From an uncultured Candidatus Sumerlaeota bacterium (GTDB taxonomy: Bacteria > CAYMEV01), in assembly GCA_964389675.1 (NCBI GenBank), contig CAYMEV010000012.1:39329-103328 (forward strand): 64,000 nucleotides of DNA. The letters run 5' to 3'. Below, in pieces: positions 26,843-31,530 of this stretch. The notes beneath the pieces are model-generated. The model saw only the letters and a program-made list of their open reading frames with translations, did no database searches and was not told the DNA's origin. The position numbers were made by a program, and so were the translations under genes. Each line of letters begins with the position of its first letter. Position 1 is the stretch's first letter.

Positions 26843-28270
26843 TCACCTGATGATCTCATCGCTGTTGAATACATATATCCCGTCCTTTCCCCTTTCTTTA
26901 ATATAATACATTGCAGTATCAGTATTATTGATAAGCTCCTCCTTGTTATTGGAGTTGAAGGGAAATGTGGCAATGCCGAAGGATGCTGTAAGATGTTCGT
27001 TTATGCCGAGGTTTTCAAGAAATACATATGCATTGAGCTTTTTCCTGAATCTTTTTACCAGAGTAAGGGAGTTCTCAGAGCCTGTTTCAGGAAGAAGCAT
27101 AATAAACTCGTCCCCTCCATACCTGATTGCGATATCCATCTTCCTGATGCTTGACTTAAGGAGGAGGCCTATTTCGCTTATCACCTGGCTTCCTGCAAGG
27201 TGCCCGTAATTGTCGTTTATCCTTTTAAACCCGTCAATATCGAAAAAGACCATGGATATAGGCTTTTTTGTACGCCTTTCACGCTCAATCTCCTGCTCCA
27301 GGTAATAATTCAGGTAGCGTGAATTGTATAATTTGGTCAGGTCATCGATCAGGCTGAGTTCTTTTGTCTGTTCGAAGAGAAAGCAGTTCTCAAGCGCTAT
27401 TGCGGCAGGTTCAGATAATATCTGGAGAAGCTCCAGGTCCTTCTGGTCAAAAGGCTGATTATATTTCTTGTTCACTATCTCTATTGCACCGATAGTTATC
27501 CCGCGGCTTTTCAAAGGGATGCAGATAATTGAGCGGGTATTGAAATTATATGTAAGGTCTATATCCTCATATTTCAGTTTATCCCTGGATACATCATTTA
27601 TCAGGACAGGGAAGTTGTTTTTAAGAACATAGCCGACTATACCTGCATCTGCAGGCATTTCCTTTCCCTGAAGCTTACTTCCTATTGTGCCCTTGGAAGC
27701 TTCAAATATAAGCTTATCCTGCTCTTTGTTAAGAAGGAGCAGTGACCATCCCTCGCATTTGATTATCTCCTCTATCTTCTGCATTATTGATTCCACAACT
27801 GTCGAACGGTCCAGAGATGAATTGGCTTTTTTGACTATGTCTGCAAGTATATTAAACTTATAAAGAATCTGAAGGTAGATTTTCTCATAATCAGTGCTGT
27901 ATTTGGCCTCCTGATAATTCTTGATGGCCTTTTCAATTGCAAATATAAGCTCTTCACTGCTTAGAGGCTCATTCAGCAGGTATGCAACATTCCATAAAAC
28001 AAGGTTATTTACCTCAACCTTCTCATTATCCCTTTTGATAAAAATGACCGGCAGGTCAAGGTTCAGTGAGGACAGGACAGATATGGTGAACTGTATATCG
28101 CTTGCGGGGAAATCACTTAAAAGGATTATTATATCAATAGACGGCTGCCTGGATAATATGGCCTTTATCTCATCTATGCTTTTTGCACACATGAAACTGC
28201 CTGAATAATTACCTGCAAGGAGGCTTTCTATTAAATGAGTGTTCTTTCCCAGAAGCAGGATATTTATCAT
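26843..28270 (-). CDS. Diguanylate cyclase: degenerate receiver-like domain + GAF + GGDEF (intact RxxD I-site)
   Basis: 475 aa; GGDEF active site RYGGDEFIML preceded by RKMD I-site; central GAF; the N-terminal CheY-like fold lacks the canonical acidic pocket (MINILLLGKNT). Confidence 0.85.
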   Translation of the reverse strand: MINILLLGKNTHLIESLLAGNYSGSFMCAKSIDEIKAILSRQPSIDIIILLSDFPASDIQFTISVLSSLNLDLPVIFIKRDNEKVEVNNLVLWNVAYLLNEPLSSEELIFAIEKAIKNYQEAKYSTDYEKIYLQILYKFNILADIVKKANSSLDRSTVVESIMQKIEEIIKCEGWSLLLLNKEQDKLIFEASKGTIGSKLQGKEMPADAGIVGYVLKNNFPVLINDVSRDKLKYEDIDLTYNFNTRSIICIPLKSRGITIGAIEIVNKKYNQPFDQKDLELLQILSEPAAIALENCFLFEQTKELSLIDDLTKLYNSRYLNYYLEQEIERERRTKKPISMVFFDIDGFKRINDNYGHLAGSQVISEIGLLLKSSIRKMDIAIRYGGDEFIMLLPETGSENSLTLVKRFRKKLNAYVFLENLGINEHLTASFGIATFPFNSNNKEELINNTDTAMYYIKERGKDGIYVFNSDEIIR

Positions 28271-28281
28271 GGAGCCCTTTC

Positions 28282-29730: not shown

Positions 29731-30665
29731 TTCTTCAGGACCTCCATGGTTTTATTGGCAATATCTGCAGGCATAAGCTTAAATAATCTGAAAAGCTCTT
29801 CAGATGAGCCTGACTCTCCGAATCGGTCTTCTATGCCCATTCTTACGACAGGCAGTGGACTTTTTTGCACTATACATTCAGCAATTGCAGAAAAAAGGCC
29901 GCCAATGACTGAATGCTCCTCAACCACAAGAATTGCTTTTACCTTACCGGCAAGACTCTCAAGGAGGTCACTGTCAACAGGCTTGATGGTAGGCATATTG
30001 ATTATATAGGGGGTGAAATTATATTCATCCCTGAGAATGTCATATGCCTTAAGTGAATTGTGGACCATATATCCTGCGGAGATAATGGCAATATCAGAAC
30101 CCTCCCTCAGGATCTCACCCCTTTTAAGCTCAAAGCTGTATGAAGCGTCGTATATTACCGGGAACTTCTCTCTGGATGTCCTTATATAGTATGGCCCTTT
30201 GTTTCTGTATGCATGGTATATCATCTGCTTGGCCTGGTAATAGTCAGCAGGCATGAGTATCTTCATATTTGGTATGATACGCATCAGGCCTATATCTTCG
30301 GTAGTCTGATGGGATGCCCCGTCAGGGCCGACGGAGATTCCTCCGTGGCTTGCTACTATTTTTACGTTCAGGCGGTTGTATGCAATGGATTGCCTTATCT
30401 GCTCCCATGGCCTGCCGGTGGCAAAGATGGCAAAGGTCGATGCAAATACGGTAAACCCTTCACTTGCCAGCCCTGCAGCTGTCCCCATCATATCCTGCTC
30501 GGATATTCCCATATTAAAGAACCGGTCGCTGTAAAGCCTGCCGAACATCTGGCTCCTTGTGGAGCCTGCCAGGTCTGCATCCAGGACCGCCACCATAGGG
30601 TCGCTTCCTATGTCCTGAAGGACCTCGCCATATGCATCCCTTGTTCCAAGTAGCTTATTGGTCAT
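29715..30665 (-). CDS. Transketolase, C-terminal (pyrimidine-binding) subunit
   Basis: 316 aa; transketolase Pyr and C-terminal domains; characteristic two-gene split. Confidence 0.85.
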   Translation of the reverse strand: MTNKLLGTRDAYGEVLQDIGSDPMVAVLDADLAGSTRSQMFGRLYSDRFFNMGISEQDMMGTAAGLASEGFTVFASTFAIFATGRPWEQIRQSIAYNRLNVKIVASHGGISVGPDGASHQTTEDIGLMRIIPNMKILMPADYYQAKQMIYHAYRNKGPYYIRTSREKFPVIYDASYSFELKRGEILREGSDIAIISAGYMVHNSLKAYDILRDEYNFTPYIINMPTIKPVDSDLLESLAGKVKAILVVEEHSVIGGLFSAIAECIVQKSPLPVVRMGIEDRFGESGSSEELFRLFKLMPADIANKTMEVLKNWQIR

Positions 30666-31530
30666 TATATTTCAGCAGCTCCTTTTCTATTTCCTCAAGG
30701 TTATAATCGAGTTCTGAAAGGGCTTTTTCTGCCTCCTCCCTGTTGGGGGCATTGCCATGAAAGCTGATATTGTTTTCCATAAAGGAGACTCCCTTGCCCT
30801 TGATTGTCCTGGCTATTATAAAAGAGGGTTTTCCCTTTGTTTCTCTCGCCTTCGAAATAGCATCATATAAATCAGAGTAGTTATGGCCATTGACTGTCTG
30901 GACAGACCAGCCGCAGGCCTTGAGCTTTTCGTCTATGGGGTAGATAGATTTTATCTGCTCTATCGTACCGTCGATCTGGAGATTGTTATTGTCAACAATG
31001 GCAATAATATTGTCAAGCCTGCGATGAGATATACCCATGATTGCTTCCCATACCTGGCCCTCCTGCATCTCACCATCGCCAAGGATGCAATATACCTTCC
31101 GGTTTTCCAGTCTTTTAAGCCTGAGAGCGAGTGCCTTGCCTTGAGCCATGCTGAGGCCCTGTCCAAGTGAGCCTGTCGATACCTCTATTCCTGATGTCCT
31201 GTTCCTGTCAGGGTGGCCCTGCAGGCATGCACCGAGCTTCCTGAGGCTGTAGATGCAGCTTTTCTCAAAGAAGCCCTTATCGGCAAGGACAGCATATAAA
31301 GCAGGGCAGGCATGGCCCTTTGACAGTATGAACCGGTCCCTTTCTTCGGATTTGAATATATCAGGGCCTATTTTCATTATTTTGTAATACAGCACAACAA
31401 TGATATCTATAACGGAAAGCGAGCCTCCAGGATGGCCCGAGCCGGCATTTGCCAGCATGGATATTATATCCTTCCGCAGCATTGAAGCCTTTTTATGCAG
31501 CAGAAGCTCTTCTAATTTCGAAAGACTCAT
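30655..31530 (-). CDS. Transketolase, N-terminal (TPP-binding) subunit
   Basis: 291 aa; TPP-binding motif GDGEMQEG; 11-nt overlap with the C-terminal subunit gene. Confidence 0.85.
   Translation of the reverse strand: MSLSKLEELLLHKKASMLRKDIISMLANAGSGHPGGSLSVIDIIVVLYYKIMKIGPDIFKSEERDRFILSKGHACPALYAVLADKGFFEKSCIYSLRKLGACLQGHPDRNRTSGIEVSTGSLGQGLSMAQGKALALRLKRLENRKVYCILGDGEMQEGQVWEAIMGISHRRLDNIIAIVDNNNLQIDGTIEQIKSIYPIDEKLKACGWSVQTVNGHNYSDLYDAISKARETKGKPSFIIARTIKGKGVSFMENNISFHGNAPNREEAEKALSELDYNLEEIEKELLKYNDQ

What the first reader, a model, noticed from the sequence alone, without database searches (positions are those of the whole stretch)
26843..31530. Split transketolase genes translationally coupled to a FecR-like membrane protein and a GAF-GGDEF diguanylate cyclase
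The transketolase C-subunit gene ends at 29715 while the FecR-domain membrane protein starts at 29730 (16-nt overlap). That gene ends 11 nt before the GGDEF gene, whose product has an intact GGDEF site, an RxxD I-site, a GAF domain and a degenerate N-terminal receiver. Central pentose-phosphate enzymes co-transcribed with a trans-membrane FecR-like sensor and a c-di-GMP synthase is an unexpected operon, immediately upstream of the chemosensory operon.
Basis: partly seen in the sequence, partly recalled or inferred. Interest (0 to 1): 0.45.

Follow-up and report, generated by a model that had tools for sequence, protein, structure and literature searches.

The report
FecR-like protein paired with cGAMP-type GGDEF cyclase
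The four overlapping genes are real, but transketolase is only a local neighbour: the widely conserved unit is a membrane-anchored FecR-like protein paired with a GGDEF cyclase whose active site predicts the messenger 3',3'-cGAMP rather than only c-di-GMP.

Summary
On the minus strand tktN (30655-31530), tktC (29715-30665), a FecR-like gene (28282-29730, TTG start, 16-nt overlap) and a receiver-like/GAF/GGDEF gene (26843-28270, 11-nt gap) form a tight array upstream of mcp-cheWYA-cheC-cheD.

The interpretation needs two corrections.

1. The tkt linkage is lineage-specific. It is kept in six related uncultured lineages (FecR-like identity down to 45%), where the whole neighbourhood is syntenic. 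Outside that clade no locus I inspected has it. The FecR-like/GGDEF pair is the conserved unit: 66 of 71 informative metagenomic loci have it, mostly 3-12 nt apart, in four groups below 40% identity with 36-72% GC.

2. The cyclase has the Hypr-GGDEF signature. Ser361 replaces the guanine-reading Asp, the motif is GGDEF with central Asp, and the cross-dimer residue is Ser. Its best solved relative is Geobacter GacA. It is therefore predicted to be a GacB-like 3',3'-cGAMP or promiscuous synthase that c-di-GMP inhibits at RKMD.

A distant FecR-like homologue sits beside an RxxQ HD-GYP enzyme, the signature of cGAMP phosphodiesterases. This matches the Myxococcus pmxA operon.

The FecR-like protein is not an anti-sigma factor. 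Its role as extracytoplasmic partner of the cyclase is inferred, and no enzyme activity was tested.

The parts
31606..31634 (-). Promoter-like site upstream of tktN (TTGACT-17-TAAATT)
   Evidence: Found in the consensus scan. The AAAATAATTGACT box is conserved in four lineages in the alignment of the uvrD-tktN spacers. Function was not tested.
30655..31530 (-). Transketolase N-terminal (thiamine diphosphate-binding) subunit, 291 aa
   Evidence: PF00456, E 4e-55. NCBIfam NF004559 transketolase, model positions 18-283 of 627, 307 bits.
29715..30665 (-). Transketolase C-terminal subunit, 316 aa; overlaps tktN by 11 nt
   Evidence: PF02779 + PF02780. NF004559 positions 317-625, 267 bits. The two halves together give 574 bits against a cutoff of 488.
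28282..29730 (-). FecR-like signal-anchored envelope protein, 482 aa, TTG start inside the tktC 3' end
   Evidence: Pfam FecR at aa 164-267. AlphaFold model has pLDDT 84.6 with: tail aa 1-17, TM helix 18-44, helical region 48-124, FecR beta-sandwich 127-297, Ig/Fn3-like 303-393 and Ig-like 406-480. Foldseek matches the FecR-type domain of 4m0n.
29674..29730 (-). Conserved cytoplasmic juxtamembrane tail (MANKIKSIFEWNIIAISYT) of the FecR-like protein
   Evidence: W11 is invariant across 27 family members at about 22% identity. The motif [ED]W[FN]x[VI]SY[RKT][TS] is present in all four groups of partners.
26843..28270 (-). Pseudo-receiver/GAF/Hypr-type GGDEF cyclase, 475 aa (GacB-like)
   Evidence: Pfam GAF at 153-294 and GGDEF at 307-462. 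AlphaFold shows a receiver-like (beta-alpha)5 fold at aa 2-104. The best solved sequence relative is the Geobacter GacA Hypr GGDEF 6d9m, 157.8 bits against <=100 for canonical cyclases.
27188..27190 (-). Codon of Ser361, the Hypr specificity residue (GHLAGS)
   Evidence: Aligns with Ser348 of Gmet_1914 GacA. Canonical cyclases have Asp here (definition in PMC6456294). Ser is found in 112 of 113 closest homologues.
27104..27145 (-). I-site RKMD (27134-27145) and active-site GGDEF (27104-27118)
   Evidence: Read from the translation. The RxxD-x5-GGDEF spacing is as in PleD and GacA.
26758..26852 (-). Long hairpin spanning the cyclase stop codon followed by TTTTAAT: weak terminator candidate
   Evidence: ViennaRNA fold. 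A hairpin plus T6 is also found in L001 but not in L005. It was not detected by the simple scan.
26727..26755 (-). Promoter-like site of the chemosensory operon (TTGATA-17-TG-n-TAAAAT, extended -10)
   Evidence: Found. TGnTAnnAT is conserved directly upstream of mcp in four lineages, including L003, where a radical-SAM gene separates the cyclase from mcp.
21584..26695 (-). mcp-cheW-cheY-cheA-cheC-cheD chemosensory operon (neighbour, probably a separate transcription unit)
   Evidence: Pfam hits for the MCP.

Best explanation
The region is one transcription unit: tktN-tktC-fecR-like-gacB-like. It is read from a promoter upstream of tktN and ends at or near the cyclase stop codon.

Its ancient, self-standing core is the last two genes. 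The cyclase is a Hypr-type GGDEF enzyme with three domains: pseudo-receiver, GAF and GGDEF. Ser replaces the guanine-specific Asp, so it is predicted to accept ATP as well as GTP. The expected main product is 3',3'-cGAMP, with some c-di-GMP. The GAF domain probably binds a small ligand (cAMP in GacB and Lcd1). c-di-GMP is expected to inhibit the enzyme at the RKMD I-site.

The FecR-like protein is anchored by one N-terminal helix. It exposes a helical stalk, a FecR beta-sandwich and two Ig-like domains to the periplasm. I infer that it is the extracytoplasmic partner of the cyclase. It would sense an envelope or surface cue, or place the enzyme at the membrane, through its conserved EW(F/N)x(V/I)SY tail and TM helix.

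Transketolase is a genuine split housekeeping-type enzyme. In this clade the pair has come to lie behind its genes and shares their promoter. No metabolic coupling needs to be invoked.

Shown: gene structure, conservation of the pair, the signature residues and the folds.
Inferred: the product, the ligand, physical contact between the two proteins and the direction of signalling.
For: Gene structure and junctions.

Synteny of tkt-FecR-like-GGDEF-che holds only in the window clade:
- L001/L002/L017 (81-92% identity), L014, L003/L004 (54%), L005 (52%), L008/L018 (45%).

The pair without tkt:
- L016 has a FecR-like gene 8 nt upstream of a 468-aa homologue. The two FecR-like proteins align at E 5e-21 over aa 137-465.
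- 66 of 71 metagenomic loci with upstream sequence have the FecR-like gene immediately upstream on the same strand.
- The partners fall into 4 clusters at 40% identity, with GC from 36 to 72%.

Hypr signature:
- 6d9m (GacA) is the best solved relative and shares GHLxGS.
- Definitions come from PMC6456294: Ser348, exclusive GGDE[F/Y], Asn339, and the cross-dimer residue, where Ser/Tyr/Ala/Gln variants give mainly cGAMP.
- Ser plus GGDE[F/Y] occurs in 67 of 68 and 112 of 113 relatives.

GAF domain: it resembles the cAMP-bound Lcd1 GAF (rmsd 2.7 A). GacB is a cAMP-activated, c-di-GMP-inhibited GAF-Hypr GGDEF (10.1101/600031).

Link between FecR-like proteins and cGAMP turnover:
- L010 has a HAMP-HD-GYP gene with RPYQ beside the FecR-like homologue P0006 and a secreted Ig-domain protein.
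- This has the same layout as the M. xanthus pmxA operon, whose MXAN_2063 is a FecR-domain lipoprotein (PMC8844925). PmxA is an RxxQ cGAMP-specific phosphodiesterase.

Promoter and terminator hints.
Against: - No activity, ligand or interaction was tested.
- Some natural Ser-type enzymes still make much c-di-GMP. Those cited carry Arg at the cross-dimer position; Bd0367 makes both products (abstract of PMC9140294).
- The FecR-like protein has only about 19 cytoplasmic residues, so a signalling route to a soluble cyclase is not obvious.
- The pseudo-receiver cannot be the obligatory docking domain. Short forms that lack it still have the partner (L038, L094).
- One short homologue (P0129) and the P0107 group have no FecR-like neighbour.
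- 48 of 59 full-length partners come from one high-GC lineage, so the count of 66 is not 66 independent events.
- The tkt junction is kept tightly in six lineages, so a clade-specific functional link cannot be excluded.
- The tools cannot rule out an internal promoter inside tktC.
Confidence: 0.6

Rival explanations
1. The operon couples pentose-phosphate flux to second-messenger synthesis: transketolase and the sensor/cyclase are co-regulated because they work together, for example by linking ribose-5-phosphate or purine supply to the nucleotide signal.
For: - Overlapping or abutting tktC/FecR-like junctions are kept in six lineages down to 45% FecR-like identity, although the overlap geometry changes (16, 8 and 1 nt).
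- A conserved promoter box lies only upstream of tktN.
- Hypr enzymes are sensitive to the ATP:GTP ratio (PMC6456294).
Against: - Outside this clade, no locus with the pair carries tkt: the metagenome loci were tested with phmmer and L016 by its listed genes.
- In 28 of those loci the pair sits upstream of mreB-mreC-mreD-pbp2 instead.
- Within the clade the whole 15-gene neighbourhood (pilT-like genes, TauE, uvrD, che) is syntenic, so shared ancestry explains the order.
Confidence: 0.15
2. The enzyme is an ordinary diguanylate cyclase making c-di-GMP. The pair, together with the downstream che genes, forms a Wsp-like chemosensory pathway with a cyclase output.
For: - The GGDEF site and I-site are intact, and there is a receiver-like N-terminal domain.
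- The che operon lies immediately downstream in all clade members.
- REC-HD-GYP genes follow cheD in L003 and L005.
Against: - Ser, not Asp, occupies the guanine-reading position, and the closest solved relative is the cGAMP synthase GacA.
- The receiver-like domain lacks the acidic pocket and the Lys, and its Asp53 is not conserved (His in P0021), so CheA cannot phosphorylate it.
- The che operon has its own conserved promoter element, and a radical-SAM gene is inserted between the two units in L003 and L014.
- No che genes lie next to the pair in other groups.
Confidence: 0.15
3. The FecR-like protein is simply a co-expressed envelope or adhesion protein, possibly a target of the pathway, and not an input or anchor for the cyclase.
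For: - Most of the protein is periplasmic FecR plus Ig-like domains.
- The same Ig-like module is repeated up to 36 times in giant, adhesin-like proteins.
- Longer homologues P0007 and P0009 sit next to PKD-repeat giants, not cyclases.
- The cytoplasmic tail is very short.
Against: - The stop/start spacing of 3-12 nt is kept across groups below 40% identical.
- The best-conserved linear motif of the family is the cytoplasmic juxtamembrane tail.
- FecR-domain proteins also accompany the matching phosphodiesterase.
Confidence: 0.25

Closest known systems
GacB (MXAN_2643) of Myxococcus xanthus, a GAF-Hypr GGDEF cGAMP synthase
   Same: GAF domain followed by a GGDEF domain with Ser at the specificity position, a GGDEF motif and an RxxD I-site. 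GacB is activated by cAMP at the GAF domain and inhibited by c-di-GMP (10.1101/600031).
   Different: The window protein has an extra N-terminal pseudo-receiver of about 105 aa. Its activity and ligand are untested. I could not fetch GacB's own sequence or its neighbours, so orthology and partner status in M. xanthus remain unverified.
GacA (GSU1658 / Gmet_1914) of Geobacter and Bd0367 of Bdellovibrio, Rec-Hypr GGDEF enzymes
   Same: The Gmet_1914 GGDEF domain is the best solved sequence relative (6d9m, 157.8 bits). It shares Ser348, Asn339, GGDEF and the I-site.
   Different: In GacA the receiver domain keeps its conserved Asp (D52), and the paper describes it as a Rec-GGDEF with no GAF domain. 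The cross-dimer residue is Tyr in GacA and Ser here. No FecR-like partner is reported for either enzyme in the papers I searched.
pmxA operon of M. xanthus (MXAN_2061-2063): cGAMP phosphodiesterase, FecR-domain lipoprotein and Fn3 protein
   Same: An extracytoplasmic FecR-domain protein is encoded next to a cGAMP-turnover enzyme (PMC8844925). L010 repeats this layout with an RPYQ HD-GYP gene and a homologue of the window's FecR-like protein.
   Different: There the enzyme is the phosphodiesterase, not the synthase. MXAN_2063 is a lipoprotein rather than a signal-anchored protein. The authors state that its function is unknown.
FecR-type anti-sigma factors (FecIRA, ECF242)
   Same: They share the periplasmic FecR beta-sandwich (PF04773). 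The fold matches the putative anti-sigma factor 4m0n.
   Different: There is no cytoplasmic anti-sigma domain (19-residue tail only), no adjacent ECF sigma factor and no TonB-dependent transducer. The C-terminal half consists of Ig-like domains.
Lcd1 of Leptospira interrogans, a cAMP-activated GAF-GGDEF diguanylate cyclase
   Same: GAF-GGDEF architecture. The GAF model superposes on cAMP-bound Lcd1 GAF at 2.7 A with 25% identity.
   Different: Lcd1 is described as a cAMP-binding diguanylate cyclase. Its specificity residue was not examined here.
CHASE2 adenylate cyclase / FecR-domain protein / TPR clusters
   Same: This is another recurrent pairing of a secreted FecR-domain protein with a cyclic-nucleotide enzyme (PMC9239204).
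   Different: The cyclase class is different and the sensor domain is on the cyclase itself. That FecR protein is described as an outer-membrane protein.

Membership tests
Hypr GGDEF (GMP-AMP cyclase, GacA/GacB type) | GGDEF-domain fold and sequence family | tested here: met
   PF00990, E 1.4e-42. The AlphaFold GGDEF domain matches 6d9m and canonical domains.
Hypr GGDEF (GMP-AMP cyclase, GacA/GacB type) | Ser/Thr instead of Asp at the Watson-Crick-face position (Gmet_1914 Ser348 = PleD Asp344) | tested here: met
   Ser361 in GHLAGS aligns with GHLVGS of 6d9m. The canonical chains in the same search have GD. The definition comes from PMC6456294.
Hypr GGDEF (GMP-AMP cyclase, GacA/GacB type) | GGDE[F/Y] motif with central Asp, exclusive in natural Ser/Thr enzymes ('Goldilocks' rule) | tested here: met
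   The motif is RYGGDEF at aa 383-389. All parsed relatives have GGDE[F/Y].
Hypr GGDEF (GMP-AMP cyclase, GacA/GacB type) | Cross-dimer residue (Gmet Tyr304) is not the canonical residue; Tyr/Ser/Ala/Gln variants give mainly cGAMP, Arg gives more c-di-GMP | tested here: met
   Ser317 (LYNSRYL) aligns with FNYRYL of 6d9m. Ser is found in 65 of 68 relatives. What it implies for the product is inference.
Hypr GGDEF (GMP-AMP cyclase, GacA/GacB type) | Produces 3',3'-cGAMP from ATP + GTP | not testable with these tools
   This needs an enzyme assay or biosensor.
GacB subtype (cAMP-activated GAF-Hypr GGDEF) | N-terminal GAF domain that binds cAMP | tested here: inconclusive
   A GAF domain is present and is structurally similar to cAMP-bound Lcd1 GAF. 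Ligand residues were not analysed. An extra pseudo-receiver precedes the GAF domain.
FecR-type anti-sigma factor | Periplasmic FecR domain | tested here: met
   PF04773, 30.8 bits against a cutoff of 24. The fold matches 4m0n.
FecR-type anti-sigma factor | Cytoplasmic N-terminal anti-sigma domain of about 80 residues | tested here: not met
   Only about 17-19 residues precede the TM helix.
FecR-type anti-sigma factor | Adjacent ECF sigma factor and TonB-dependent transducer genes | tested here: not met
   The neighbours are tktC and the GGDEF gene in the window and in all relatives.
Split transketolase (N + C subunits) | Separate Transketolase_N and Transket_pyr + Transketolase_C polypeptides that together cover a full-length transketolase model | tested here: met
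   NF004559 positions 18-283 and 317-625 are covered, and the summed score is 574 bits against a cutoff of 488. The GDG...NN cofactor motif is visible in the translation. Whether this is the cell's only transketolase cannot be told from 64 kb.
Response-regulator cyclase (PleD/WspR type) | Receiver domain with acidic pocket, phospho-acceptor Asp and conserved Lys | tested here: not met
   The (beta-alpha)5 fold is present. However, Gly-Lys replaces the acidic pair and Asn-Glu-Pro replaces Lys-Pro. Asp53 is not conserved among orthologues. There is no Pfam Response_reg hit at E<=10.

The most novel reading that the evidence does not exclude
Signal-anchored or lipidated FecR-domain proteins may be the missing extracytoplasmic input module of Hypr-cGAMP signalling. 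They would partner both the synthase (GacB-like enzymes, as here) and the RxxQ HD-GYP phosphodiesterase (PmxA-like). Contact would be through a conserved EW(F/N)x(V/I)SY juxtamembrane tail. This would make the pair a new two-protein transmembrane signalling device found from low-GC uncultured lineages to high-GC soil bacteria.
Probability: 0.3. Interest if true: 0.7.

Novelty: new variant of a known kind. Interest (0 to 1): 0.5.

Why it matters
Hypr GGDEF enzymes are the main non-DncV route to bacterial 3',3'-cGAMP. Little is known about what activates them: cAMP for GacB is described as the first known activator (10.1101/600031).

A conserved, translationally coupled envelope partner would give a concrete candidate for the upstream input. 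It would also suggest a link between cGAMP signalling and the cell envelope. The pair lies beside mreBCD-pbp2 and a SurA/PpiD-like chaperone in most other lineages.

The result is also a caution for annotation. This gene, and more than 100 of its closest relatives, would be labelled 'diguanylate cyclase' although their active sites predict a different messenger.

The transketolase linkage that prompted the finding is of minor importance.

Tried and rejected
- **Word-index search for the FecR-like protein.** It gave only 11-12 hits and made the family look tiny. The exhaustive profile search showed it is large: 24,027 hits. Many of these are Ig-repeat giants, but dozens of full-length clusters of about 480 aa are present.
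- **Genome-collection scan with the FecR-like alignment.** It returned only one true relative, with no taxon name.
- **Metagenome scan with the broad FecR-like alignment A2.** I used the GAF part of the cyclase family instead.
- **Look-up of P0001 by exact sequence.** It failed.
- **Taxonomic placement.** No source gives a name to any of 18 proteins looked up. The lineage is undetermined.
- **Hypothesis that the pseudo-receiver is the docking domain for the FecR-like tail.** I weakened this, because short forms lacking it still have the partner (L038, L094).
- **Simple terminator scan.** It found nothing in the gaps and only chance-level hits inside genes. RNA folding gave a weak hairpin-plus-T-run candidate in two of three lineages.
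- **Search for cGAMP or c-di-GMP riboswitches.** Rfam at gathering score finds only a tRNA in the window.
- **The REC-HD-GYP gene after cheD in L005.** It has a degenerate motif (RPPI) and gives no information on specificity.
- **Literature search.** I found no paper describing a FecR/Hypr-GGDEF pairing.

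
Full report
**1. The observation**

All genes of the finding lie on the minus strand.
- tktN is 30655-31530 and tktC is 29715-30665. Pfam identifies them as the two halves of a transketolase.
- Together they cover one NCBIfam transketolase model end to end. The scores are 307 + 267 bits against a cutoff of 488.
- The next ORF (28282-29730) begins with TTG at 29730, 16 nt before the tktC stop, and GGAGG lies 10 nt upstream.
- No other canonical start precedes the transmembrane helix, and the first 20 residues are conserved in homologues. 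The start and the overlap are therefore real.
- The GGDEF gene (26843-28270) starts 11 nt after the FecR-like stop. It has GAF and GGDEF domains, RKMD-x5-GGDEF and an N-terminal domain that Pfam does not recognise even at E<=10.
- AlphaFold models that N-terminal domain as a (beta-alpha)5 receiver-like fold.
- The mcp-cheW-cheY-cheA-cheC-cheD cluster follows after 147 nt.

**2. Is the order conserved?**

The order is conserved, but only within one clade.
- Contigs encoding FecR-like proteins 81%, 54%, 52% and 45% identical keep tktN-tktC-FecR-like-GGDEF. So does one found through a 72%-identical cyclase. Where the contig is long enough, the che operon and the upstream pilT-like, TauE and uvrD genes are kept as well.
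- The tktC/FecR-like junction is 16, 16, 8, 1 and 1 nt of overlap, with TTG, GTG or ATG starts. The FecR-like/GGDEF gap is 5-20 nt.
- An AAAATAATTGACT box upstream of tktN is conserved in four lineages.
- A TGnTAnnAT extended -10 element is conserved directly upstream of mcp. This holds even in L003, where a radical-SAM gene has been inserted between the cyclase and mcp.
- A long hairpin followed by a T-run spans the cyclase stop in the window and in L001, but not in L005.

The most economical reading is two units: tktN-tktC-FecR-like-cyclase, then the che operon. This is inference from sequence; no transcript data exist.

**3. The conserved unit is the last two genes**

- A 468-aa homologue of the cyclase on a 505-kb contig is preceded, 8 nt upstream, by a 414-aa FecR-domain protein.
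- That protein aligns with the window's FecR-like protein over aa 137-465 at E 5e-21. No transketolase is nearby.
- I then scanned metagenome contigs with the GAF part of the cyclase family. I searched the 80 returned loci with my own profiles of the two families.
- Of the 71 loci with at least 300 nt upstream, 66 have a FecR-like gene immediately upstream on the same strand, mostly 3-12 nt away.
- tkt was detected in one of the 80, a near-identical relative of L001. A second clade member, L018, is cut before tkt.
- The 59 full-length partners form four clusters at 40% identity, in DNA of 36-72% GC. However, 48 belong to one high-GC lineage.
- In that lineage the pair lies between a divergent SurA/PpiD-like gene and mreB-mreC-mreD-pbp2.

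Exceptions exist. The P0107-like group and the short homologue P0129 lack the partner.

**4. What the cyclase is**

- Its best match among solved structures is the Hypr GGDEF domain of Geobacter metallireducens GacA (6d9m). The score is 157.8 bits against 100 or less for canonical cyclases.
- The alignment places Ser361 (GHLAGS) on GacA Ser348. Canonical enzymes in the same output have Asp at this position.
- According to PMC6456294, this Ser is the signature of Hypr enzymes. Natural Ser/Thr enzymes have GGDE[F/Y] exclusively. The cross-dimer residue (Tyr304) tunes the product: Tyr, Ser, Ala or Gln give mainly cGAMP, and Arg gives more c-di-GMP.
- The window protein has GGDEF, Asn352 (equivalent to Asn339) and Ser317 at the cross-dimer site.
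- The same signature is found in 67 of 68 cyclases of the metagenome loci and in 112 of 113 of the closest database homologues.
- The architecture resembles M. xanthus GacB, a GAF-Hypr GGDEF that cAMP activates and c-di-GMP inhibits (10.1101/600031). The GAF model superposes on cAMP-bound Lcd1 GAF.
- The receiver-like domain has no acidic pocket and no conserved Lys, and its Asp53 is replaced in an orthologue. Phosphorylation by CheA is therefore unlikely.

I conclude, from sequence only, that the enzyme is a Hypr-type cyclase. The likely product is 3',3'-cGAMP, possibly together with c-di-GMP.

**5. What the FecR-like protein is**

The AlphaFold model (pLDDT 84.6) shows these parts:
- a short tail;
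- one TM helix (18-44);
- a helical stalk (48-124);
- a FecR beta-sandwich (127-297) that matches the FecR-type domain of 4m0n;
- two Ig-like domains.

The protein has no anti-sigma domain and no sigma factor or transducer neighbour, so it is not a FecR anti-sigma factor. An exhaustive profile search shows many full-length relatives of about 480 aa. The middle Ig-like module also recurs in giant repeat proteins.

The most conserved linear element of the family is the cytoplasmic juxtamembrane tail. W11 is invariant, and the motif [ED]W[FN]x[VI]SY[RKT][TS] is present in all groups. I take this as a hint of a cytoplasmic contact, possibly with the cyclase. The pseudo-receiver is not required for the pairing (L038, L094).

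**6. A wider pattern**

- A 26%-identical FecR-like homologue (P0006) lies 4 nt downstream of a HAMP-HD-GYP gene whose motif is RPYQ.
- RxxQ is the signature of the cGAMP-specific phosphodiesterase PmxA.
- A secreted Ig-domain protein follows it.
- The M. xanthus pmxA operon contains a FecR-domain lipoprotein and an Fn3 protein of unknown function (PMC8844925).
- FecR-domain proteins also accompany CHASE2 adenylate cyclases (PMC9239204).

I found no paper that links FecR-like proteins to Hypr GGDEF enzymes. The library does not cover all journals.

**7. Verdict**

An operon that includes tkt is probable in this clade, but the transketolase link looks like inherited gene order rather than function.

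The part worth following up is different from what was flagged. It is a widely conserved, translationally coupled pair: a FecR-like envelope protein and a cyclase with the cGAMP-type active site.

The enzyme is a new member of a known kind. The obligatory-looking partner and the added pseudo-receiver make the system a new variant. Activity, ligand, interaction and the taxonomic position of the organism remain untested.

Noticed in passing
L016:4748-12766; 28 of the loci L019-L096: In the high-GC lineage the FecR-like/Hypr-GGDEF pair sits directly upstream (about 60 nt) of mreB-mreC-mreD-pbp2-rodA and is divergent from a SurA/PpiD-like rotamase gene. This suggests a link to cell-envelope growth.
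   Followed up: partly
L010:1-3461 (also L011): A HAMP-HD-GYP gene with RPYQ (the RxxQ signature of cGAMP-specific phosphodiesterases) is followed after 4 nt by a FecR-like homologue. A secreted Ig-domain protein with the same YYWKV motif comes next. This mirrors the M. xanthus pmxA operon.
   Followed up: partly
L003:10890-12203 and L014:4608-5915: A radical-SAM gene (about 435 aa) is inserted between the cyclase and mcp in two lineages of the clade. It is 1-8 nt after the cyclase stop and is absent from the window.
   Followed up: no
window 34674-38217 (minus strand): Two PilT-family ATPase genes lie in tandem. The upstream one (827 aa) carries a HEAT-repeat N-terminal extension of about 460 aa. 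Both are conserved in the syntenic loci.
   Followed up: no
L003:17411-17446, L005:10513-11818 versus window 18412-21487: Downstream of cheD, L005 has two REC-HD-GYP genes and L003 at least one before its locus ends; the one examined, in L005, has a degenerate RPPI motif. The window and L001 instead have a histidine kinase, followed in the window by a sigma-54 NtrC-type regulator.
   Followed up: partly
proteins P0138-P0285: The Ig/Fn3-like module of the FecR-like protein (aa ~295-395, motif GxYYWRV) is repeated 10-36 times in giant proteins of 1,000-6,000 aa. FecR-like homologues P0007 and P0009 lie next to PKD-repeat giants.
   Followed up: no
window 26696-26707: The MCP ORF is listed from GTG 26707, but that GTG overlaps the AGGAG ribosome-binding site. 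ATG 26695 (MRRKILL...) is the likely start and is conserved as ATGAGA in four lineages.
   Followed up: yes
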